64,000 nucleotides of DNA from Escherichia coli (GCA_025336685.1 GCA_025336685.1_4717.1); one strand, 5' to 3'. Counted from the first letter of the stretch, positions 14,961 through 23,032 are shown. Notes: generated by a model from the letters alone, not told the origin. Translations and numbers: made by a program.

Positions 14961-15057
14961 GCTGACTTATGTATCACGGTGCCGGATGAATGTCCGCAAT
15001 GAAACCATCCGCAACGTTGTCGTCAAGAATATCATCCAACGAAGCAGCTACGGTAGT

Positions 15058-17280
15058 TCAGTTAGTCTGAACAGGCAGCTTGATGTTTTCGGTGTAGACC
15101 TTACGCAGGTTCACAACGTTAATCAGACCCAGCAGCGGGCAGTTGTTAACGAAGCGGCAGCGAGGCTGAACCATGGTTTCTTTAGAAACCTGACCGTTAC
15201 GGGTAACCTGAGCAACAGATACCAGTTCCGGTACGTACAGGAACATACCGAAGGTCAGCGGATCCGGAGAACCCTGGATACCACGAGACAGGGTCACGAA
15301 GATCTTATCACGCAGCAGAACGTTCGGGTTATCTACAACCACGAAGTTGAAGCTTACACCAACGGTACGGAAATCACCATCGGTCTGCAGGAACTGCGGG
15401 ATGTAGTTGTCAGTTGCTACCACGCAACGCGGTTTCTCATCAGCGTTGGAAGACAGCAGCTGCAGAGCTGGCTGATAACCAGACTCGGAGTACATGCGAT
15501 ATGCCATCTCACGAATCACGTTCATGATCGCAGCGGACACTTCAGCACGACGTTCTGCAGTGGTGGTGCCCTGAACAGATTTCGCCAGGTCCAGATTGAT
15601 TTCTTCGAACCACGGACGGATCAGGTAACGACCGAAACCTTCGATCTGGATGTCACCGAACTGACGGAAGCGAGAGGTCGCAACCGCTTTCAGTGCATCT
15701 TTGTAGCTGAACAGTTTCTCAACCATCAGGTTGTCGAAACGTGCGTTAGCAGCTTGGATCAGAACGTCCAGGTCAGCAGCGTTTTCTTCCCAATCCAGCG
15801 GACGAGGAATGGAGAACGGAGCCAGCAGGCCGATTGCATAACGCTCTTGCTTCATGTTGAAGTCAAGGTGTTTACCACGTTCACGACGGTTGCTGTTGTT
15901 ACGGCGAATACGCAGTTCGTAACCAACCAGTTTGAAGCTCAGGTCGTCAGCCAGGTCTTTAAATTCTTGGCTCTTACGCGGCTGTTCGATGTTGTCCTGA
16001 TCAACCAGGCGATACAGTTCAGCGTTAGCACCGTTAACACGCAGACCTGCTTTCTCTACGTTGGAAGAACCGTAAACTTCGATAGCCAGCTGAGCAGCAG
16101 ATTTCGCATCGATGATGTCCTGCAGCGCTTCGGCTTTCGCACCTTTAACGTCAACGGTGTTCTCATCAACGAAGATGGAGTGGGTGTCGAACGCCAGGGT
16201 CATTTTGCGGAAGTCGCCTTCCAGGGATTTCTGGAAACCGTTGGTAATCAGACCGGATACGTCGAACGGAACGTAAGAGGTCTTGCTGTGCTTGGCTGAT
16301 TTGATTTCCACCAGGATTTTGGTCAGCGTGATCTGAGCATCCAGCGCATCGGTGTTGTCGCTGTAACCGTTAGCCAGAATGCTATCGTCTTCAGCGATAC
16401 CGATCATGTCGATCAGTTTATCAACAGCCAGGTAAGACGTTTTGTAAGTTACGCCTTTAATCTCGATGTCGCGCGGAGCAACGATAGTTTTGTCAACGAA
16501 GTACTGCGCGTTAGCATCGTCGGCACGATAGATCGGATGCAGATCGGTCACGTCGTTGGACAGAACGTCGTTGTACATGAACGCATCCAGCAGCGGACGA
16601 CGTACCCAATCAGCCGGAGTACCGTCAGCGTTACGACGCAGGTGGTTGAACACCAGCGGACGACGGAAAGATACGTCGTAACCGATCTGGTTCGGAGCCA
16701 GAACGATGGTGTTGTACAGTTCGTTACCCATGCGGCTCAGACGAGAAGCCTTCACGTTGAACACAACGGAGTACGGCATCATGTCACGCAGTTCTTTCTG
16801 GTCGTAGGACAGCTGAACCAGTTCTTCAGATTCGCAACCGCAGGAATCAGCAGCCATCATGACGAAGTTAGAGCTGTCAACTTCACGGCCAGACGGAGTG
16901 GTGCTGATGTTCATGGAACGTGCTTGTTTAGCATATTCTACCGGGTTGCCATGAGCCAGCATGATCAGTGCTGCTGCACGAGCCTGCTGTGCGTTCATGG
17001 TGAACAGCTGTTCTTCAATACGCTGCTTCTCTTCCGGAGTGGTGGTTTCGAAGCCCAGCATGGACAGAACCGGTTCTTCTGCTTTACGGATGTCGCTGCT
17101 GAAGCTCTTAACATCCATATCGTTAACCAGTTTGTCCATGGATTTGAAATCAACCTTAGAAGCAGATTCCATAGACAGGAAGGTGTTCTCCAGACCTTTG
17201 TCTGCTGGTTTGCTACCATTAGCGGTCAGGAACTGGCGAGTGGCCGCGACCTGTTGGCTAAGAAGGGTTTTATCATTCAT
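15058..17280 (-). CDS. candidate major capsid protein (740 aa)
   Basis: ATG with AAGGA SD; codon usage sharply optimised (CTG, CGT, GGT, ACC, AAC) relative to neighbours; size fits jumbo-phage capsid proteins; N-terminus has SME|S-type motifs; function by inference only. Confidence 0.85.
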   Translation of the reverse strand: MNDKTLLSQQVAATRQFLTANGSKPADKGLENTFLSMESASKVDFKSMDKLVNDMDVKSFSSDIRKAEEPVLSMLGFETTTPEEKQRIEEQLFTMNAQQARAAALIMLAHGNPVEYAKQARSMNISTTPSGREVDSSNFVMMAADSCGCESEELVQLSYDQKELRDMMPYSVVFNVKASRLSRMGNELYNTIVLAPNQIGYDVSFRRPLVFNHLRRNADGTPADWVRRPLLDAFMYNDVLSNDVTDLHPIYRADDANAQYFVDKTIVAPRDIEIKGVTYKTSYLAVDKLIDMIGIAEDDSILANGYSDNTDALDAQITLTKILVEIKSAKHSKTSYVPFDVSGLITNGFQKSLEGDFRKMTLAFDTHSIFVDENTVDVKGAKAEALQDIIDAKSAAQLAIEVYGSSNVEKAGLRVNGANAELYRLVDQDNIEQPRKSQEFKDLADDLSFKLVGYELRIRRNNSNRRERGKHLDFNMKQERYAIGLLAPFSIPRPLDWEENAADLDVLIQAANARFDNLMVEKLFSYKDALKAVATSRFRQFGDIQIEGFGRYLIRPWFEEINLDLAKSVQGTTTAERRAEVSAAIMNVIREMAYRMYSESGYQPALQLLSSNADEKPRCVVATDNYIPQFLQTDGDFRTVGVSFNFVVVDNPNVLLRDKIFVTLSRGIQGSPDPLTFGMFLYVPELVSVAQVTRNGQVSKETMVQPRCRFVNNCPLLGLINVVNLRKVYTENIKLPVQTN

Positions 17281-17304
17281 TGAAAGTATCCTTTACAGAA
17301 TTAA

Positions 17305-17314
17305 CTTATATAAG
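17305..17314 (-). promoter_or_regulatory. palindromic CTTATATAAG box about 25 nt upstream of the capsid-candidate start, putative promoter element
   Basis: 10-bp AT-rich palindrome in the 150-nt leader of the most codon-optimised gene. Confidence 0.3.
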
Positions 17315-17429
17315 TCGGTCGATAGACCATAGCGTACACGCGTGCATGCGCCACTATAGTATCAGTAAACACTTACCGTTATTGAGGTCGTGATACAACA
17401 CTAAAAATGCCGCATAACTTTTCCCTACG

Positions 17430-17834
17430 TCACAAACGACGCAGGCGATAATGGATGGAACGATTGGTGCAATATGAACGGAACAGCGGCAATTGCGCAA
17501 CTTCCGCAAGACTCATATTAATTCGCAGGTGTTCAATAACGGCGCTGTAGTTATCAGCAATACGATCGCTCAATAACTCTTCTGCCAATAAAGGAAGACA
17601 ATCGACAACAATCGCGATCACATCCTCATTAACATAACGCACCCGAACACTCAACGGACGTTTGTCTGGGTTGTAAGTTGGATCCGCCAAACGACGTTCA
17701 ATATCACGCGGATAGCTCGTCAGTAAATGGTAATAACCATTGTCATAACGATTGATGTACTCACACAGCACACCAACGTTCTTCTCTGGCGGTAAACCTG
17801 TTTCGTCATAGTGGATACGCAAACATACCACCAA
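17430..17834 (-). CDS. hypothetical protein, C-terminal ORF of a possibly frameshifted gene (134 aa)
   Basis: ORF-track start is TTG; overlaps 17806-18051 in another frame; no in-frame ATG near the 5' end. Confidence 0.45.
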   Translation of the reverse strand: MVVCLRIHYDETGLPPEKNVGVLCEYINRYDNGYYHLLTSYPRDIERRLADPTYNPDKRPLSVRVRYVNEDVIAIVVDCLPLLAEELLSDRIADNYSAVIEHLRINMSLAEVAQLPLFRSYCTNRSIHYRLRRL

Positions 17835-18051
17835 GCAGGTTGTTAAGATGGACCGCAGGGTTCGCTTGTTCGTGTTCTTTCGTGATGAAGAAAGGCACGT
17901 TCTGGGCCGCGAAATAAAAACCTACATCATTGGGCGATAGTATGCCGAAAAGACTTTTAGGATCCAATAACACCTGTAAGTCATCACGCGCATTTCGAAT
18001 AATCGCGTGTTCTACCCAATTCGGAACGACGAGATATCGGAGTTCCTTCAT
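17806..18051 (-). CDS. hypothetical protein, N-terminal ORF of a possibly frameshifted gene (81 aa)
   Basis: ATG start; 3' end overlaps the 5' end of 17430-17834. Confidence 0.45.
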   Translation of the reverse strand: MKELRYLVVPNWVEHAIIRNARDDLQVLLDPKSLFGILSPNDVGFYFAAQNVPFFITKEHEQANPAVHLNNLLGGMFAYPL

Positions 18052-18090
18052 TATGATTACCTCTTTGCAAGTATCGAAAGGATTGAGTCG

Positions 18091-19701
18091 ATGGACCCAA
18101 AACAGATAGCCATTAAGATTATTACGTTACTGTTTCGTAACGCACAATTGAACCATCCCGATCCCAGTACGATCGACCATGTTAAATCCGTCTTAGATAA
18201 AGTCGAACCCCCGAAAAACCATCTCGCTACGGACATAGATAGAGAGGTTTTCAACAACCTGATGAATACCATTCATTGGATGTTGGAACAACCGTTATCG
18301 GAACCTTTCGACAAACAACAGTTGTTACAAAGGATACGTTTAGATTGCCTTGAGCAAAGCAATCTTTACGAGATTCTTGCCGACGGACTGTACGATATCG
18401 AAGACGATGCTCATATCAGTAAGGTCTGTTCGCTTTATTACAACGAATTGCGTAACCTGATTACCCGCCGTCGTGTTTTCGAAACCTTTAGAAACACGTA
18501 CATGGATATCAGTAACGGGCGACTTGGGGATAAAGAATTTTTCGACGCGATGGCGAATTTGAAATTATCGCTTGACAGTATCGAAATGGATACCGAAAAT
18601 CCCGAAGAGATGTCGTGTATGGTTGATGGCTTTATTGCTGACAGCGAAGACGATATCGAGAAAGTCGAACGTATGTTCGTTAAAGCGATGGAACGTAACA
18701 GTCCTGAAGGTGGGTTTGTAACCGGCTGGCAAGGTTTTAATAAAATGTTGGGGTCGGTCGGCGTTTTACGTCGCGGTACCTTAGGACTGATTGGTGCGAT
18801 GCAGCACCGAAATAAATCGGGTGTGTTGTTAAAACTGTTCACGCATCTGGCATTGTACAACAAACCTCATTTCTTTTTTCCGGAGCGAGCAAAGAAAGCG
18901 TTACTGATTCATTTGTCAACAGAAAACGAAGTAGAAGAAAACACGCTTCAGATATACAAGAACATGCGAGAACAGGAAACAGGCGAATATGTCGATATTC
19001 GTAAGATTGACCCTCGCGAGGCATCACGTTATGTGTTGAAGGTGTTCAACGATGCGGGTTTCTCTGTTTGTATGCGTCGTGTTGACGGGATGAGTTACAA
19101 ACAACTCGCTAATCTCATCGACCATTTCGAACGCATGGGTTATGAGGTCATGGCGTTGTTCATTGACTATCTGAAAATGTTCTCATCGGAAGGGCTGGAT
19201 AGAAATGGACCGACCGGCGCATGGCTCCAAGAACTCTTCAACAAAGTTCGTAACCTCTGCAGTGTTAAACGTATTTTAGGTATGACCGTACACCAGCTGT
19301 CATCCGACGCGAAGATGCGTGCACGTGACGGTAACGATGAAGAGTTTGTTGACCAAGTCGCAGGCTTAAGTTACTGGGATGGTTGTAAAGGGATTGACCG
19401 TGAGATCGATCTTGAAGTGATTGTTGATATCGTTAAGGAGCCAGGTAAACGTCAAAGCTGGCAGGTCTTTGCGTTAGGGAAAGACCGTCAACCGGATAAC
19501 GGTTCAACGAAACCTGAGGATAAACATTTCACAATGCCATTCCAAACCATCGGGATGCTTCCTGATGATTACGGTAAGAAAGCAGTATACTGTCGTAAGG
19601 TTGGTGGACAACCAGTCTCCGAGGGAGGTAAAGGTCCGTGGAACAAGTTCGATGAAAACGCAGCACCAAGTAATGAATTACAATTTGATTTAGAATTTTA
19701 A
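18091..19701 (+). CDS. DnaB-like helicase homologue with atypical P-loop (about 536 aa)
   Basis: ATG at 18091 with AGGA upstream; P-loop-like GAMQHRNKSG, Walker-B-like LFIDYLKMF, H3-like GMTVHQLS; assignment by motif only. Confidence 0.75.
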   Translation: MDPKQIAIKIITLLFRNAQLNHPDPSTIDHVKSVLDKVEPPKNHLATDIDREVFNNLMNTIHWMLEQPLSEPFDKQQLLQRIRLDCLEQSNLYEILADGLYDIEDDAHISKVCSLYYNELRNLITRRRVFETFRNTYMDISNGRLGDKEFFDAMANLKLSLDSIEMDTENPEEMSCMVDGFIADSEDDIEKVERMFVKAMERNSPEGGFVTGWQGFNKMLGSVGVLRRGTLGLIGAMQHRNKSGVLLKLFTHLALYNKPHFFFPERAKKALLIHLSTENEVEENTLQIYKNMREQETGEYVDIRKIDPREASRYVLKVFNDAGFSVCMRRVDGMSYKQLANLIDHFERMGYEVMALFIDYLKMFSSEGLDRNGPTGAWLQELFNKVRNLCSVKRILGMTVHQLSSDAKMRARDGNDEEFVDQVAGLSYWDGCKGIDREIDLEVIVDIVKEPGKRQSWQVFALGKDRQPDNGSTKPEDKHFTMPFQTIGMLPDDYGKKAVYCRKVGGQPVSEGGKGPWNKFDENAAPSNELQFDLEF

Positions 19702-19726
19702 ACGCAAAAAAAAAGATTGTACGGTT

Positions 19727-19758
19727 CCCTCCTCCAACCCGTAAGGGAAGGAGGAGGG
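19727..19758. terminator. junction hairpin CCCTCCTCC-AA-CCC-GTAA-GGG-AA-GGAGGAGGG between convergent genes
   Basis: Perfect 9+3 bp stem; A9 run 12 nt upstream gives a U-tract for the minus-strand transcript; followed by TTATG. Confidence 0.55.
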
Positions 19759-19773
19759 TTATGACCGCGGTGG

Positions 19774-20100
19774 TTAACTTATTGTCATAAATTCGCTTGG
19801 TGAGAATTTCCAACCATTCTCATTGAGAAGTGTGTTGAGTTTCGCTGCGACAATAAGCCATGCATGCATAGCCGTTATGTCGTATTGGCGATTCACTCGA
19901 CGTTGGTTTTCGATATTGATTTGCTCCTGTTCAGTGATGTTTGGATAGAGTGAGATAGCGCTGGGCTTACCCAGCGCGCTAGCCATCACCGCAGTACATT
20001 CACTGATAATGTTGTTTAAGTGGTAGTTGTATACCGTTCCGCGCATGACGCGATGACGGCATTCGATAATAGCGTCGTAAATGATTTCTCGAGTAATCAT
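19774..20100 (-). CDS. hypothetical protein (108 aa)
   Basis: ATG at 20100. Confidence 0.6.
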   Translation of the reverse strand: MITREIIYDAIIECRHRVMRGTVYNYHLNNIISECTAVMASALGKPSAISLYPNITEQEQINIENQRRVNRQYDITAMHAWLIVAAKLNTLLNENGWKFSPSEFMTIS

Positions 20101-20106
20101 GATAAC

Positions 20107-20508
20107 TTAAAACATGCGTTCGTTTTTAGCACGGGCAGCCATTACCAGATCGTAGATACCTGCGGTTCGTAAACATTCGTCGTAGTAACGATGTGCGCCT
20201 TCCTCAGCCATCCATGATAACCCACGGCTATCCGCAACGATAACCAATTTGTTATTGTTGAATGCACACACCACACGGTAAGTCGCGTTGTTATTCGGAT
20301 CGCGAGTGATCAGCTCATAGACACCGTTAACAGGTTTACTGAATTCGCCATTTAACGGGACGAGTTCGGTAGTACCTTCAGCAAACGTTACGTTGATCGG
20401 AGACGGATCTTTAGCGATAACAGTATATTCCACATTGTGTTCTTTACTGGTCATAATGCCGAAGTAAGAACTGATAGGGGAACGTGGTACACTAAGAATA
20501 TTAAACAT
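20107..20508 (-). CDS. hypothetical protein (133 aa)
   Basis: ATG at 20508 with AGAGGA SD. Confidence 0.7.
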   Translation of the reverse strand: MFNILSVPRSPISSYFGIMTSKEHNVEYTVIAKDPSPINVTFAEGTTELVPLNGEFSKPVNGVYELITRDPNNNATYRVVCAFNNNKLVIVADSRGLSWMAEEGAHRYYDECLRTAGIYDLVMAARAKNERMF

Positions 20509-20578
20509 GAGAGTTGTCCTCTTAATTGGATTTAGATTGTTGGATATGTAATCGGGAAATGAAAACGCTGTTTCGGTT

Positions 20579-21148
20579 TTAGACGATATGTGACCAGGTG
20601 GTAAGCACGCCGCTTGCGAATTCGAGCTTAAGACGTTTACCGATAAGTTGTTGTTGAATCATCTTTTCAGTGATACGTCGATCATGCTGAACAGCTTTAT
20701 CAAACGCTTCTTTCGCTTCGGCTTGGTAGAAGTTCGTTTCTTCGTTGTCGTCGATATCTTCGAGAGCGTCATCGTCAACATCAGCAAGCTTTACTCGACC
20801 GTTTTCATCAGGTTGTTCTGCAGGTTCGTTGTCATAAGGCGTGTCTTTTGTTGGTGCGACACGATGATGCAACTCGACCTGTGTTAACATGATCTCCATC
20901 TCACCATCGATAGGGATGATTTCATCGGCGCAGCCGTTTTCGGTCAGCTCTCGACTTTCTAGCAATGTCGTGGTAACAGAGAACACCTCTTCAACAGGAA
21001 CCTCATCATCGTCGATAGTGTTAACCGTATTGCTGGTAACTTCGGCAACGACCATCAAATCAAATGCGTGAGGATCGCCTGGCATTTTGATTCCTGGGAG
21101 TTTGTTGAGATACCAAGGATCGAGAATCATGATTTCTGGATTAAACAT
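20579..21148 (-). CDS. hypothetical acidic protein (189 aa)
   Basis: ATG at 21148; D/E-rich. Confidence 0.7.
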   Translation of the reverse strand: MFNPEIMILDPWYLNKLPGIKMPGDPHAFDLMVVAEVTSNTVNTIDDDEVPVEEVFSVTTTLLESRELTENGCADEIIPIDGEMEIMLTQVELHHRVAPTKDTPYDNEPAEQPDENGRVKLADVDDDALEDIDDNEETNFYQAEAKEAFDKAVQHDRRITEKMIQQQLIGKRLKLEFASGVLTTWSHIV

Positions 21149-21215
21149 CGTTTTACCTTTCTATGTTAGGTGGATTGCGGATAGAAGAATCAATGCATAG
21201 ATTGATCGTTCTTTG

Positions 21216-22118
21216 TTAGAAATTATTGCCGAACCGGTTATGGTTGTATGGTTGGTAGTGTCCGTAATTGCCTGGGAAGCCACCATACGTCGTAGGCTCC
21301 GGTTTAGGGACTTCCATAATCGGATTTTTAGAATTGATCGCCATCACGTAAAGGGTTACGGGTGATGCTGCGTGGCCCATTTCGACGACCACACGGCGGA
21401 TATAATCAATGTATGCTGTTATTGCAGGCGTCAGTTTGTCTCCTTCGGTAGTTATAACGGTGCCGTCGGAAAGAATCTCACGAACCGCGCACCATTTACC
21501 AAGATGAACTCCTTGCTGCGGCTTTACTCCAGCAGAGATAGAGAGATAGGTATCGTACGTCGTTTGATGATACGGATGACTATAAATAGATTCCGCTTTG
21601 TTTTCGTCTTTCCCTAAGTACTCGCCTTGCTTAGGAGTATGAGTTGATATCATATCGGTATTTTCCACGAATGTCTTTCCTTCGAGTTGTTTGATTAATC
21701 GTTTAACCGATTCAGTTATGTTGTTGTGTCTAGGGATCAGCTTTAAGTAAACAGTCGGTAACTGGATTGTTGACCCATCACTACTGCGCGGATAAGATAA
21801 TTTGTAAAACTGTTCAAAAATCCGCCGTAACGCTTCGTTGTCTGAAGTTGCCAATTTAACATAGGAGCATCGTCCTTTAGCATTGGGATTGTAGAGAAGG
21901 AGAATAACGTCTTCGTCAGTACGTGTATCCTGAGGATGACAAGCGATGTAGTGAATGGGAATAGCCGTATCTTTTTCGTCTCCCGGTTTGATAGACAATG
22001 AAAAATCATGAGTTTCTTTTAACGTTCGTAACGTGCAGGATGCGTCGTCACTATTAAGTAAGAACACACCGAAACGCACGCTTTCGTATGCTGACGGGTC
22101 GCGTATTAATAAGGTCAT
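21216..22118 (-). CDS. hypothetical protein, tandem paralog family with HP.H.TYD.YL motif (about 300 aa)
   Basis: ORF-track start 22196 is TTG; ATG at 22118 has AGGAG SD at 7 nt; shares HPYHQTTYDTYLSISAGV with 22204-22977. Confidence 0.8.
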   Translation of the reverse strand: MTLLIRDPSAYESVRFGVFLLNSDDASCTLRTLKETHDFSLSIKPGDEKDTAIPIHYIACHPQDTRTDEDVILLLYNPNAKGRCSYVKLATSDNEALRRIFEQFYKLSYPRSSDGSTIQLPTVYLKLIPRHNNITESVKRLIKQLEGKTFVENTDMISTHTPKQGEYLGKDENKAESIYSHPYHQTTYDTYLSISAGVKPQQGVHLGKWCAVREILSDGTVITTEGDKLTPAITAYIDYIRRVVVEMGHAASPVTLYVMAINSKNPIMEVPKPEPTTYGGFPGNYGHYQPYNHNRFGNNF

Positions 22119-22203
22119 GTTCGGCTCCTTGATTACGATAAGGATGATTGCGGTTTTGTGGTGCTGGTAGGGCCCTAAACAAAGGAACCCTACCAATATT
22201 AGG

Positions 22204-22977
22204 TTATTCAGGATCGGCGTAGAAATGGTGAGGATAGCCGGAGTACGATCCTGCGTTACCGGCTATGGATTCTTTCTGGGAATCGACGACGAGCGCATAG
22301 AACTGTCGGGAATTTGTTAGCGTTGAGAAATAAGCGGAAAGGACTTTTTCATTCAACGCATCGCAAGGTAGACAGGTGCGACCGCAAAACGTAACGATAC
22401 GGCCGTCAGGATAGATCTCACGAATCATTCTCCACTCACCGATATCCACTGGTGATGGTGCTGCTACACCACCTGTTATCGTTAAGTAACGATCGTACGT
22501 GGTATGGCATTCAGGATGAATATAGATCGGCTTGTTCGTTTCGACAGGTTCCGAAGTGTCTCGACGACTAAGGAGTTCAACGACTTCAAGATAAATCGTT
22601 GGTAGATCGCGGAGAATACCGGTGTTACGACGTTTCTTTGTGATTCGCGGACGAATCTCGTTAAGAGCGTATTCGAGCTTACGTTCAGCTTCGTACGCAT
22701 CGAGTTTTATTAGGTGGCCCGGTTCATCGGAATGATCCTGAGTTATGTAAACGAAATACGTGTTGTCTTTTGCAGCGCGAAAGATTCGAGCGACCTTAAA
22801 TGTTTCTACAGTGCGATAACCAAGGCGCGATTGATTTTCCACAGGAGAAAATATCCAATGTCGTCCTTCGTCCGCCCCAACAATTTCGTTGAAACTATCC
22901 GTTTGTTCTGGGACCTGGTAGTCAGCCATTAATGTATCAAGAGCGTCATCGGCCAGTTTGGTGTAAATATCTGTCAT
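22204..22977 (-). CDS. hypothetical protein, tandem paralog of 21216-22118 (257 aa)
   Basis: ATG at 22977 with GAGGA SD; HPECHTTYDRYLTITGGV motif. Confidence 0.8.
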   Translation of the reverse strand: MTDIYTKLADDALDTLMADYQVPEQTDSFNEIVGADEGRHWIFSPVENQSRLGYRTVETFKVARIFRAAKDNTYFVYITQDHSDEPGHLIKLDAYEAERKLEYALNEIRPRITKKRRNTGILRDLPTIYLEVVELLSRRDTSEPVETNKPIYIHPECHTTYDRYLTITGGVAAPSPVDIGEWRMIREIYPDGRIVTFCGRTCLPCDALNEKVLSAYFSTLTNSRQFYALVVDSQKESIAGNAGSYSGYPHHFYADPE

Positions 22978-23032
22978 GTTTGTATCCTCGGTTGTTAAGA
23001 GAAATTTACAATGATAACAGTAACCGTTGCTA

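What the first reader, a model, noticed from the sequence alone, without database searches (positions are those of the whole stretch)
18091..19701. DnaB-like helicase homologue with a non-canonical P-loop inside the virion gene block
Motifs resembling DnaB-family Walker B (FIDYLKMF) and H3 (GMTVHQLS) are present, but the Walker A position reads GAMQHRNKSG rather than GxxxxGK(S/T). It may be an unusual helicase or a non-catalytic derivative, and it forms a single-gene plus-strand island.
Basis: partly seen in the sequence, partly recalled or inferred. Interest (0 to 1): 0.5.

Follow-up and report, generated by a model that had tools for sequence, protein, structure and literature searches.

The report
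Jumbo-phage divergent DnaB replicative helicase
This gene encodes the DnaB-type DNA-unwinding motor shared by the nucleus-forming jumbo phages; its odd ATP-binding loop is real, but it is a family-wide trait of an already catalogued protein family, so the finding is correct but ordinary.

Summary
The window comes from a close relative of Escherichia phage Goslar (Chimalliviridae). The ORF 18091-19701 (+), 536 aa, is the orthologue of Goslar gp043, annotated in RefSeq as a DnaB-like replicative helicase. Orthologues include phiKZ gp118, 201phi2-1 gp197 and RAY gp315. It matches Pfam PF20307 'divDNAB, Divergent DnaB-like ATPase' at E=2e-120. Its AlphaFold model matches full-length bacterial DnaB, T4 gp41 and G40P.

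The P-loop has normal length but reads A-M-Q-H-R-N-K-S. The glycine before the catalytic lysine is Asn here and Tyr/Phe/Trp in 84% of 171 family representatives. Only 4 of 171 keep Gly, so this is not a sequence error.

The other catalytic residues are invariant or nearly so: P-loop Lys and Ser/Thr, the H1a Glu, the Walker B Asp, the H3 Gln and the Lys/Arg finger. dN/dS against Goslar is 0.028. The protein is therefore most likely an active hexameric replicative helicase, not a dead derivative.

Its divergent orientation beside the capsid gene is conserved across the family and published as core block 5. The family, its divergence and its nuclear localisation are already in the literature. Novelty: already known. 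Interest is low. What remains open is the biochemistry of the Gly-less P-loop.

The parts
18091..19701 (+). CDS of the divergent DnaB-like replicative helicase (536 aa + stop); orthologue of Goslar gp043
   Evidence: ORF. 98.9% aa identity to Goslar gp043. PF20307 at E=2.2e-120. dN/dS vs Goslar 0.028.
18079..18082 (+). Shine-Dalgarno-like AGGA, 8 nt before the ATG
   Evidence: Read directly from the sequence.
18091..18591 (+). N-terminal all-helical region (aa 1-167): a globular helical domain (aa 1-99) plus a long helical hairpin (helices 106-141 and 147-167), as in the DnaB N-terminal collar
   Evidence: AlphaFold secondary structure. Foldseek alignments to full-length DnaB span about 500 columns. 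Conserved TLL (12-14), L57 and LQ (79-80) in the family.
18646..18696 (+). Linker helix (aa 186-202) between the N-terminal region and the RecA-like domain
   Evidence: AlphaFold model. Its position corresponds to the DnaB linker helix in the profile alignments. Its role in docking on the neighbouring subunit is inferred.
18703..19629 (+). RecA-like ATPase domain (about aa 205-513)
   Evidence: PF20307 covers aa 151-513. hhalign to E. coli DnaB residues 174-444 gives 87.7% probability, E=3.4e-6. The family profile hits DnaB 4nmn at E=6.4e-5.
18793..18822 (+). Modified Walker A / H1 P-loop G235-A-M-Q-H-R-N241-K242-S243-G244. It has the same length as DnaB A-R-P-x-M-G-K-T, but the Gly before the Lys is Asn.
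   Evidence: for the register. K 171/171, S/T 171/171; the pre-Lys residue is Y69, F67, W7, N17, H4, G4.
18913..18927 (+). H1a motif L-S-T-E278-N, equivalent to DnaB SLEM (catalytic Glu)
   Evidence: Aligned to FSLEM of Aquifex and E. coli DnaB. E278 is 171/171.
19159..19182 (+). Walker B / H2 motif F-I-D359-Y-L-K-M-F
   Evidence: Aligned to (V/I)DYLQL(L/M) of DnaB. D359 is 171/171 and Y360 is 170/171.
19279..19302 (+). H3 motif G-M-T-V-H-Q402-L-S (gamma-phosphate sensor Gln)
   Evidence: Aligned to ALAQLSR / ALSQLNR of DnaB. Q402 is 166 of 167 aligned.
19477..19488 (+). G-K464-D-R466, equivalent to DnaB GKQRNG (Lys/Arg finger acting in trans)
   Evidence: hhalign to E. coli DnaB 'igkqrng'. 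K464 is 165/167 and R466 is 165/167.
19630..19698 (+). Flexible Gly-rich, net-acidic C-terminal tail ending ...WNKFDENAAPSNELQFDLEF; candidate docking motif
   Evidence: pLDDT below 50 for aa 516-536. An aromatic residue lies in the last 8 residues in 157 of 165 full-length family members, against 52% expected, and the mean net charge of the last 15 residues is -2.4. The function is inferred only.
19722..19767 (.). GC-rich hairpin in the 72-bp convergent gap after the stop codon; terminator-like for both converging transcription units (an A9/T9 run lies at 19706-19714)
   Evidence: Inverted repeat 19727-19740/19745-19758. Folding energy is -30.5 kcal/mol (z=-3.35) on + and -30.8 kcal/mol (z=-4.40) on -.
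15058..17280 (-). Context: phiKZ-type major capsid protein gene, the conserved neighbour
   Evidence: phrog_3231 at E=6.5e-165. PF25620 PhiKZ_MCP in related contigs.
17430..18051 (-). Context: homologue of Goslar gp042, divergently transcribed from the helicase gene; split here by a 1-bp insertion
   Evidence: It is an intact 206-aa ORF in Goslar and in four other relatives.

Best explanation
The gene encodes the replicative DnaB-family helicase of a Goslar-like nucleus-forming jumbo phage (Chimalliviridae). It belongs to the catalogued 'divergent DnaB' family, Pfam PF20307. By homology (inferred), it assembles into a hexameric ring with an N-terminal helical collar and a RecA-like motor tier. 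Nucleotide would bind at subunit interfaces between the P-loop Lys242/Ser243, Glu278, Asp359 and Gln402 of one subunit and Lys464/Arg466 of the next. The ring would translocate 5'->3' on the lagging-strand template inside the phage nucleus, unwinding DNA ahead of the phage's split family-B DNA polymerase. Its P-loop has normal length, but the Gly before the Lys is replaced by Asn (Tyr/Phe in most relatives). This is an ancient, selected, family-wide change that most likely still permits NTP hydrolysis. The flexible acidic/aromatic C-terminal tail probably docks a replisome partner (speculative). The gene sits on the opposite strand from the neighbouring capsid genes and is closed off by a strong hairpin. 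This fits a separate transcription unit, possibly timed differently from the structural genes; expression timing was not tested.
For: Shown here. (1) Family membership: PF20307 at 402 bits against a cut-off of 26, and phrog_3213 'DnaB-like replicative helicase' at E=6.7e-123. (2) Homology to canonical DnaB: the family profile hits DnaB of Aquifex, Geobacillus and Bacillus at E=6e-5 to 1e-4; hhalign to E. coli DnaB gives E=3.4e-6; 7 of 24 relatives also hit Pfam DnaB_C. (3) Fold: the AlphaFold model has mean pLDDT 80.8, and the best 50 Foldseek PDB hits listed are all DnaB, T4 gp41 or G40P, at E=1e-14 to 7e-11 over about 500 columns including the N-terminal domain. (4) Catalytic residues are invariant or nearly so across 171 representatives of clusters at 50% identity or less: K242, S/T243, E278 and D359 at 171/171, Q402 at 166/167, K464 and R466 at 165/167. 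(5) Purifying selection: dN/dS=0.028 against Goslar, with 57 synonymous and 7 non-synonymous changes. (6) The family is large, with 1510 representatives at E<=1e-3. From the literature: Iyer et al. 2021 describe a divergent DnaB in group-1 (PhiKZ-like) jumbo phages and judge it catalytically active (PMC7824862). Prichard et al. 2023 use it as a core 'replicative helicase', place it in core block 5 with the capsid gene, and show that RAY gp315-GFP localises in the phage nucleus (PMC10299810). A 2026 preprint abstract states that chimalliviruses have a DnaB-like replicative helicase and no identified primase or clamp (PMC13648687).
Against: No enzymatic or structural data for any member of this family were found in the searched library. 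From general knowledge, not tested here: the Gly before the P-loop Lys is normally intolerant of substitution (for example Ras G15A loses nucleotide binding), so retained activity is an inference from conservation. The window protein itself does not reach significance against Pfam DnaB_C or against any single PDB sequence; the link to DnaB needs profiles or structure. Hexamer formation, polarity, partner binding and expression timing are all inferred.
Confidence: 0.85

Rival explanations
1. It is a catalytically inactive DnaB derivative (pseudo-helicase) that serves only as a scaffold, loader or DNA-binding ring. Unwinding would be done by another enzyme, for example one of the phage's SF2 helicases or a host helicase.
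For: The consensus Gly of GK[ST] is missing here and in 167 of 171 relatives. From general knowledge, substitutions at this Gly commonly abolish nucleotide binding. Chimalliviruses do encode other helicases (SWI/SNF/SF2; PMC10299810).
Against: A dead ATPase would not be expected to keep the P-loop Lys and Ser/Thr, the catalytic Glu, the Walker B Asp, the sensor Gln and the trans-acting Lys/Arg all invariant or nearly so across sequences as low as 22% identical. The substituted position is itself constrained (Tyr/Phe/Trp/Asn, with conserved Gln-His just upstream), which points to a remodelled pocket rather than a decayed one. Four members carry Gly in an otherwise identical motif, so the motif is the same functional element. 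Iyer et al. also conclude it is active.
Confidence: 0.07
2. It is an active ring helicase whose remodelled P-loop (aromatic or Asn in place of Gly, plus conserved Gln-His) changes the chemistry in a functionally important way. Possible changes are a different nucleotide preference (as T7 gp4 prefers dTTP), altered coupling, or resistance to factors that target canonical DnaB.
For: The replacement is ancient, nearly universal and biased to large aromatic residues (143 of 171), with a co-conserved Q238-H239. That looks like gain of new contacts rather than drift. The replisome partners are themselves highly divergent.
Against: There is no direct evidence. Nothing in the sequence identifies a base-specific contact. 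The four members with Gly show that the canonical residue is tolerated in this scaffold. The predicted model could not be inspected at atomic level with these tools.
Confidence: 0.07
3. The unusual Walker A is an artefact, either a sequencing or assembly error or a pseudogene.
For: The neighbouring gene does carry a window-specific 1-bp frameshift, so this assembly, or this isolate, is not error-free.
Against: The reading frame is intact over 536 codons. The exact protein sequence is on record in 47 blocks of the assembly collection, including independent assemblies of about 236-240 kb. The P-loop is identical in Goslar, and the same motif type occurs throughout the family.
Confidence: 0.01

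Closest known systems
Chimalliviridae 'divergent DnaB' helicases (Pfam PF20307): Goslar gp043, phiKZ gp118, 201phi2-1 gp197, EL gp76, Erwinia phage RAY gp315
   Same: Orthologous: 98.9% identity to Goslar gp043 and about 31-33% to RAY and 201phi2-1 over the full length. They share the P-loop type, the domain order and the position next to the capsid gene in divergent orientation.
   Different: Nothing of substance. There are six conservative substitutions relative to Goslar, none in a motif. The Goslar clade has Asn before the P-loop Lys where most of the family has Tyr or Phe, and it has a longer C-terminal tail.
Bacterial DnaB (E. coli, Geobacillus/Bacillus, Aquifex, Vibrio cholerae) and phage DnaB-like helicases T4 gp41 and SPP1 G40P
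   Same: Same overall architecture: helical N-terminal domain with hairpin, linker helix, and RecA-like C-terminal domain. Motifs H1a (SLEM Glu), H2 (IDYL), H3 (QLS) and the KxR finger are conserved in register.
   Different: Sequence identity is only about 12-16% in structural alignments. The window protein does not pass Pfam DnaB_C or DnaB N-terminal models. The P-loop reads AMQHRNKS instead of ARPxMGKT. It has an extra Gly-rich acidic/aromatic C-terminal tail. The loader and primase partners are unknown.
T7 gp4 helicase-primase (C-terminal tail); resemblance recalled from memory, not tested
   Same: Both are RecA-fold ring helicases of the DnaB superfamily. T7 gp4 has an acidic C-terminal tail ending in an aromatic residue that contacts the phage DNA polymerase. 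The window protein ends ...NELQFDLEF.
   Different: There is no primase domain here and no detectable sequence homology of the tails. The analogy is functional speculation.
MCM2-7 / archaeal MCM Walker A (GDPxx[AS]KS); recalled from memory, not tested
   Same: A precedent for an active replicative ring helicase in which the Gly before the P-loop Lys is replaced.
   Different: MCM is an AAA+ protein, not a RecA-fold protein. Its replacement is a small residue (Ala/Ser), not Asn or an aromatic. The two are unrelated by descent.

Membership tests
Pfam PF20307 divDNAB (Divergent DnaB-like ATPase) | Score above the curated gathering threshold of the family HMM | tested here: met
   402.1 bits against a cut-off of 26, E=2.2e-120, covering aa 151-513 on model positions 3-355 of 356. 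All 24 aligned relatives also match.
Pfam PF20307 divDNAB (Divergent DnaB-like ATPase) | Family-typical modified P-loop [GA]-[LM]-Q-H-x-[YFWN]-K-[ST]-G | tested here: met
   The window has A-M-Q-H-R-N-K-S-G. Column counts over 171 sequences are.
Chimalliviridae core replicative helicase (core block 5 of Prichard et al. 2023) | Orthology to RAY gp315 / phiKZ gp118 and conserved position beside the phiKZ-type capsid gene | tested here: met
   tblastn hits 282 phage records, nearly all jumbo phages. The order MCP(-), small ORF(-), helicase(+) is seen in Goslar, RAY and 201phi2-1. Block 5 is described in PMC10299810.
DnaB family of replicative helicases | Canonical Walker A [AG]xxxxGK[ST] | tested here: not met
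   The loop has the same length and keeps K242-S243, but the Gly is Asn241. The same holds in 167 of 171 relatives.
DnaB family of replicative helicases | H1a catalytic Glu (SLEM), Walker B Asp (IDYL), H3 Gln (QLS) and the trans Lys/Arg finger (KxR) | tested here: met
   E278, D359, Q402, K464 and R466 align to the E. coli and Aquifex DnaB motifs and are invariant or nearly so.
DnaB family of replicative helicases | Two-tier architecture: helical N-terminal domain with hairpin, linker helix, RecA-like C-terminal domain | tested here: met
   AlphaFold secondary-structure layout. Foldseek full-length matches to DnaB, gp41 and G40P at E down to 1e-14, about 500 aligned columns, TM 0.42-0.55. The modest TM reflects differences in domain orientation.
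DnaB family of replicative helicases | Significant match to the Pfam DnaB_C (PF03796) and DnaB N-terminal (PF00772) models | tested here: not met
   The window protein gives no hit to either model at E<=1. Seven of 24 relatives hit DnaB_C, best E=2.9e-7. No relative hit PF00772.
DnaB family of replicative helicases | Hexameric ring, NTP-dependent 5'->3' unwinding, and a role at the replication fork | not testable with these tools
   This needs biochemistry, cryo-EM or genetics. The only indirect support is nuclear localisation of the RAY orthologue (PMC10299810).

The most novel reading that the evidence does not exclude
The near-universal replacement of the P-loop glycine by an aromatic residue or Asn, together with the co-conserved Gln-His, could create a nucleotide pocket with different fuel specificity or regulation from all characterised DnaB helicases. 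Examples would be dNTP or GTP use, or insensitivity to host or rival-phage factors that target canonical DnaB. This would be adapted to replication inside the closed phage nucleus with a primase-less, clamp-less replisome, and the acidic/aromatic C-terminal tail would tether the helicase to the split DNA polymerase.
Probability: 0.12. Interest if true: 0.55.

Novelty: already known. Interest (0 to 1): 0.15.

Why it matters
As a discovery it matters little. The gene is already annotated in the RefSeq Goslar record, and the family has its own Pfam entry. It has been described as a divergent DnaB (Iyer et al. 2021) and used as a core marker of nucleus-forming phages, with nuclear localisation shown for one orthologue (Prichard et al. 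2023). What remains open is mechanistic: how a RecA-fold motor works with a bulky residue where the P-loop glycine should be, how this helicase is loaded, and what primes synthesis in a replisome with no recognised primase or clamp. The residue-level map given here offers concrete mutagenesis targets for anyone reconstituting the chimallivirus replisome. It covers the pre-Lys position (84% aromatic, 10% Asn, 2% Gly), the other catalytic residues (invariant or nearly so) and the conserved aromatic C-terminal tail.

Tried and rejected
- **Single-sequence PDB searches.** Searches with the window protein and with relative P0004 found nothing meaningful. Only the family profile reached DnaB.
- **Alternative GTG start at 18007.** Rejected: it overlaps the divergent neighbour, and no homologue has the extension.
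- **Sigma-70 promoter scan of 17300-20200.** It found fewer sites than the shuffled controls, and the simple terminator scan missed the convergent hairpin. These phages use their own RNA polymerases, so this scan is uninformative. No promoter is claimed.
- **Rfam scan of 17000-21000.** No match at E<=0.1. The antisense ORFs inside the gene (18057-18272, 18438-18863, 18839-19027, 19529-19813) have no support and are taken as chance.
- **Possible inteins.** Family members with two matched stretches or extra length (P0147, P0159, P0041) were checked for inteins, which are classic in DnaB. Their insertions of 108 and 45 aa show no Hint or intein domain and lie in variable loops.
- **Literature on phiKZ gp118.** No biochemical, structural or knock-down data were found. 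gp118 is not in the main-text hit table of the phiKZ antisense screen, and I draw no conclusion from that.
- **Homology of the small ORF between the capsid and helicase genes.** Goslar gp042 against RAY gp316 is weak (E=8e-6 over 61 aa). Against 201phi2-1 gp198 it is undetectable by BLASTP. Only the position is shown to be conserved, not homology to the phiKZ gp119-type virion protein.

Full report
**What is there.** The window is a close relative of Escherichia phage vB_EcoM_Goslar, a nucleus-forming jumbo phage. Megablast of 15000-23000 finds only Goslar, at 95.9% identity. A longer version from GTG 18007 exists mechanically. However, homologues all begin at the equivalent of 18091, Goslar gp043 is annotated from that ATG, and an AGGA lies 8 nt upstream. 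The protein is 98.9% identical to Goslar gp043, which RefSeq names 'DnaB-like replicative helicase'. Exactly this protein sequence is on record in 47 blocks of public assemblies, including contigs of 236-240 kb.

Their assignment is not just a resemblance.
- A profile of 24 family members aligns them to AARPGMGKT, VDYLQLL and ALAQLSR of Aquifex DnaB, at E=6.4e-5 against the PDB sequence set.
- hhalign of the same profile against E. coli DnaB gives the same register (87.7% probability, E=3.4e-6).
- That alignment adds LSTEN (E278) against FSLEM, EIDLE (D440) against EQDADL, and GKDR (K464, R466) against GKQRNG.

The P-loop therefore has the DnaB length and keeps Lys242 and Ser243. The single deviation from [AG]xxxxGK[ST] is Asn241 in place of the Gly.

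**Identity of the protein.**
- Pfam assigns it to PF20307 'divDNAB, Divergent DnaB-like ATPase' at 402 bits, against a cut-off of 26.
- PHROGs assigns it to phrog_3213 'DnaB-like replicative helicase' at E=6.7e-123.
- It does not reach Pfam's canonical DnaB_C or DnaB N-terminal models, although 7 of 24 relatives hit DnaB_C.
- An AlphaFold2 model built on the family alignment has mean pLDDT 80.8. It shows a helical N-terminal domain, a long helical hairpin (106-141 and 147-167), a linker helix (186-202), an alpha/beta domain with the P-loop between strand 231-236 and helix 242-256, and a disordered tail (516-536).
- The best 50 Foldseek hits listed against the PDB are all DnaB (Vibrio, E. coli, Bacillus, Aquifex, Thermus), T4 gp41 or SPP1 G40P. 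E-values run from 1e-14 to 7e-11 over about 500 aligned columns, which includes the N-terminal tier.

**Error, decay or family trait?** tblastn finds the protein in 282 phage records, nearly all jumbo phages of Pseudomonas, Erwinia, Salmonella, Vibrio, Serratia, Aeromonas, Klebsiella and Ralstonia. An exhaustive profile search of 1.84 billion cluster representatives finds 1510 at E<=1e-3 and 654 at E<=1e-30. I aligned the window protein, the 150 best representatives and the earlier hits (171 sequences) to the family HMM.

| Position | Count |
|---|---|
| Residue before the P-loop Lys | Tyr 69, Phe 67, Trp 7, Asn 17, His 4, Gly 4, other 3 |
| Two positions upstream of the preceding residue | Gln 117/171, His 148/171 |
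| K242 | 171/171 |
| Ser/Thr243 | 171/171 |
| E278 | 171/171 |
| D359 | 171/171 |
| Q402 | 166 of 167 aligned |
| K464 and R466 | 165 of 167 each |

Between the window and Goslar the gene has 57 synonymous and 7 non-synonymous differences, giving dN/dS=0.028, and none lies in a motif. The odd P-loop is therefore neither a sequence error nor a sign of decay. It is an old, constrained, family-wide remodelling of one position in an otherwise complete DnaB catalytic apparatus. The four members with Gly in the same motif show that the element is homologous to a normal Walker A.

**Most likely mechanism.** By homology with DnaB (inferred, not shown), the protein forms a hexameric ring. The N-terminal helical tier forms a collar, and the linker helix packs on the neighbouring subunit. 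NTP binds between K242, S243, E278, D359 and Q402 of one subunit and K464/R466 of the next. Sequential hydrolysis then drives 5'->3' translocation on the lagging-strand template. The literature supports the biological role:
- Iyer et al. [quoted passage not shown]
- Prichard et al. 2023 treat it as the core 'replicative helicase' and show that the RAY orthologue gp315 localises inside the phage nucleus (PMC10299810).
- A 2026 preprint abstract notes that chimalliviruses have this DnaB-like helicase and a split family-B polymerase, but no identified primase or clamp (PMC13648687).

One small correction to the record. [quoted passage not shown] In my alignments Walker B (IDYL) is canonical, and it is Walker A that is modified, so that sentence is probably a slip.

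**Genomic placement.** That is correct: the capsid gene lies at 15058-17280(-), a small ORF at 17430-18051(-), the helicase on (+), then three small (-) ORFs. It is not peculiar to this genome. The same order and divergent orientation occur in Goslar, RAY (gp317, gp316, gp315) and 201phi2-1 (gp200, gp198, gp197, annotated as similar to phiKZ gp120, gp119, gp118). Prichard et al. describe a conserved core block 5 containing the capsid gene, structural genes, one helicase and an RNAP subunit. The 5' gap to the divergent neighbour is only 39 bp. The 72-bp convergent 3' gap holds a strong hairpin at 19722-19767, at about -30.5 kcal/mol with z=-3.4 on + and z=-4.4 on -, next to an A9/T9 run. The gene is thus an insulated one-gene transcription unit. 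Earlier expression than its capsid neighbours would be plausible for a replication gene, but I did not test timing and found no promoter.

**An extra feature of the family.** The last ~20-25 residues are predicted disordered, Gly-rich, then acidic with aromatic residues; here they read ...GGKGPWNKFDENAAPSNELQFDLEF. An aromatic residue lies within the last 8 positions in 157 of 165 full-length family members, against 52% expected from composition. The last 15 residues carry a mean net charge of -2.4. The sequences are related, so the binomial p-value overstates independence. From memory, T7 gp4 uses an acidic tail with a terminal Phe to hold its DNA polymerase. A similar docking role here is a reasonable guess only.

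**Rivals.**
- A catalytically dead scaffold is hard to reconcile with the conservation of the other catalytic residues (confidence 0.07).
- A sequencing artefact is excluded (0.01).
- A variant of the main explanation remains open: the remodelled pocket might alter fuel choice or regulation (0.07 as a rival, 0.12 as the novel case). This is the only part of the finding with research value.

**Verdict.** The object is an already known and catalogued protein family, so interest is low (0.15).

Noticed in passing
window 17430-18051 (-), insertion at about 17813: Relative to Goslar, the window has one extra G (AGTGGATAC against AGT-GATAC). This splits the gp042 homologue into two ORFs, 17806-18051 (81 aa) and 17430-17834 (134 aa). 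Goslar and four other assemblies that encode the identical helicase all have an intact 206-aa ORF. The frameshift is therefore specific to this sequence: an assembly error, a real inactivating mutation, or a slippage site.
   Followed up: partly
window 21216-22977 (-): Two tandem, distantly paralogous ORFs (326 aa as listed, probably 300 aa, and 257 aa; 28% identity, E=8e-12) share a motif IYxHPxxxTTYDxYLxIxxGV...G(K/E)WxxxREI. They occupy about 1.7 kb that Goslar lacks at this position; Goslar has only a 62-aa gp047 there. The pair is present in three of the four other relatives examined (L007-L009). There is no PHROG function.
   Followed up: partly
window 19706-19767: The convergent gap after the helicase gene holds an A9 run and a strong GC-rich hairpin (CCCTCCTCC...GGAGGAGGG; about -30.5 kcal/mol; z=-3.4 on + and -4.4 on -). 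On the - strand a T9 run follows it 8 nt after the extended stem. It probably acts as a terminator for the converging - strand genes and as an RNA 3' end for the helicase transcript. The simple terminator scan missed it.
   Followed up: partly
window 20579-21148 (-): The Goslar gp046 homologue is 189 aa in the window, in Goslar and in one relative (L008). It is called as 168 aa in three other relatives that encode the identical helicase (L006, L007, L009). This suggests an indel or start-site variation in this acidic small protein.
   Followed up: no
family PF20307 (proteins P0083, P0114, P0116, P0157): Four of 171 family representatives carry the canonical Gly before the P-loop Lys (for example ALEHQGKST, AISHHGKSG) while keeping the family-specific His upstream. 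Whether they are basal or reversions was not determined.
   Followed up: no
literature (PMC7824862, section 3.4.1): Iyer et al. [quoted passage not shown] The alignments made here show that Walker B (IDYL) is canonical and Walker A is the modified motif, so the published wording appears to be a slip.
   Followed up: yes
proteins P0147 (634 aa) and P0159 (562 aa): Some family members carry insertions of 108 aa and 45 aa in loops of the RecA-like domain. These are not inteins; no Hint or intein Pfam domain is present.
   Followed up: yes
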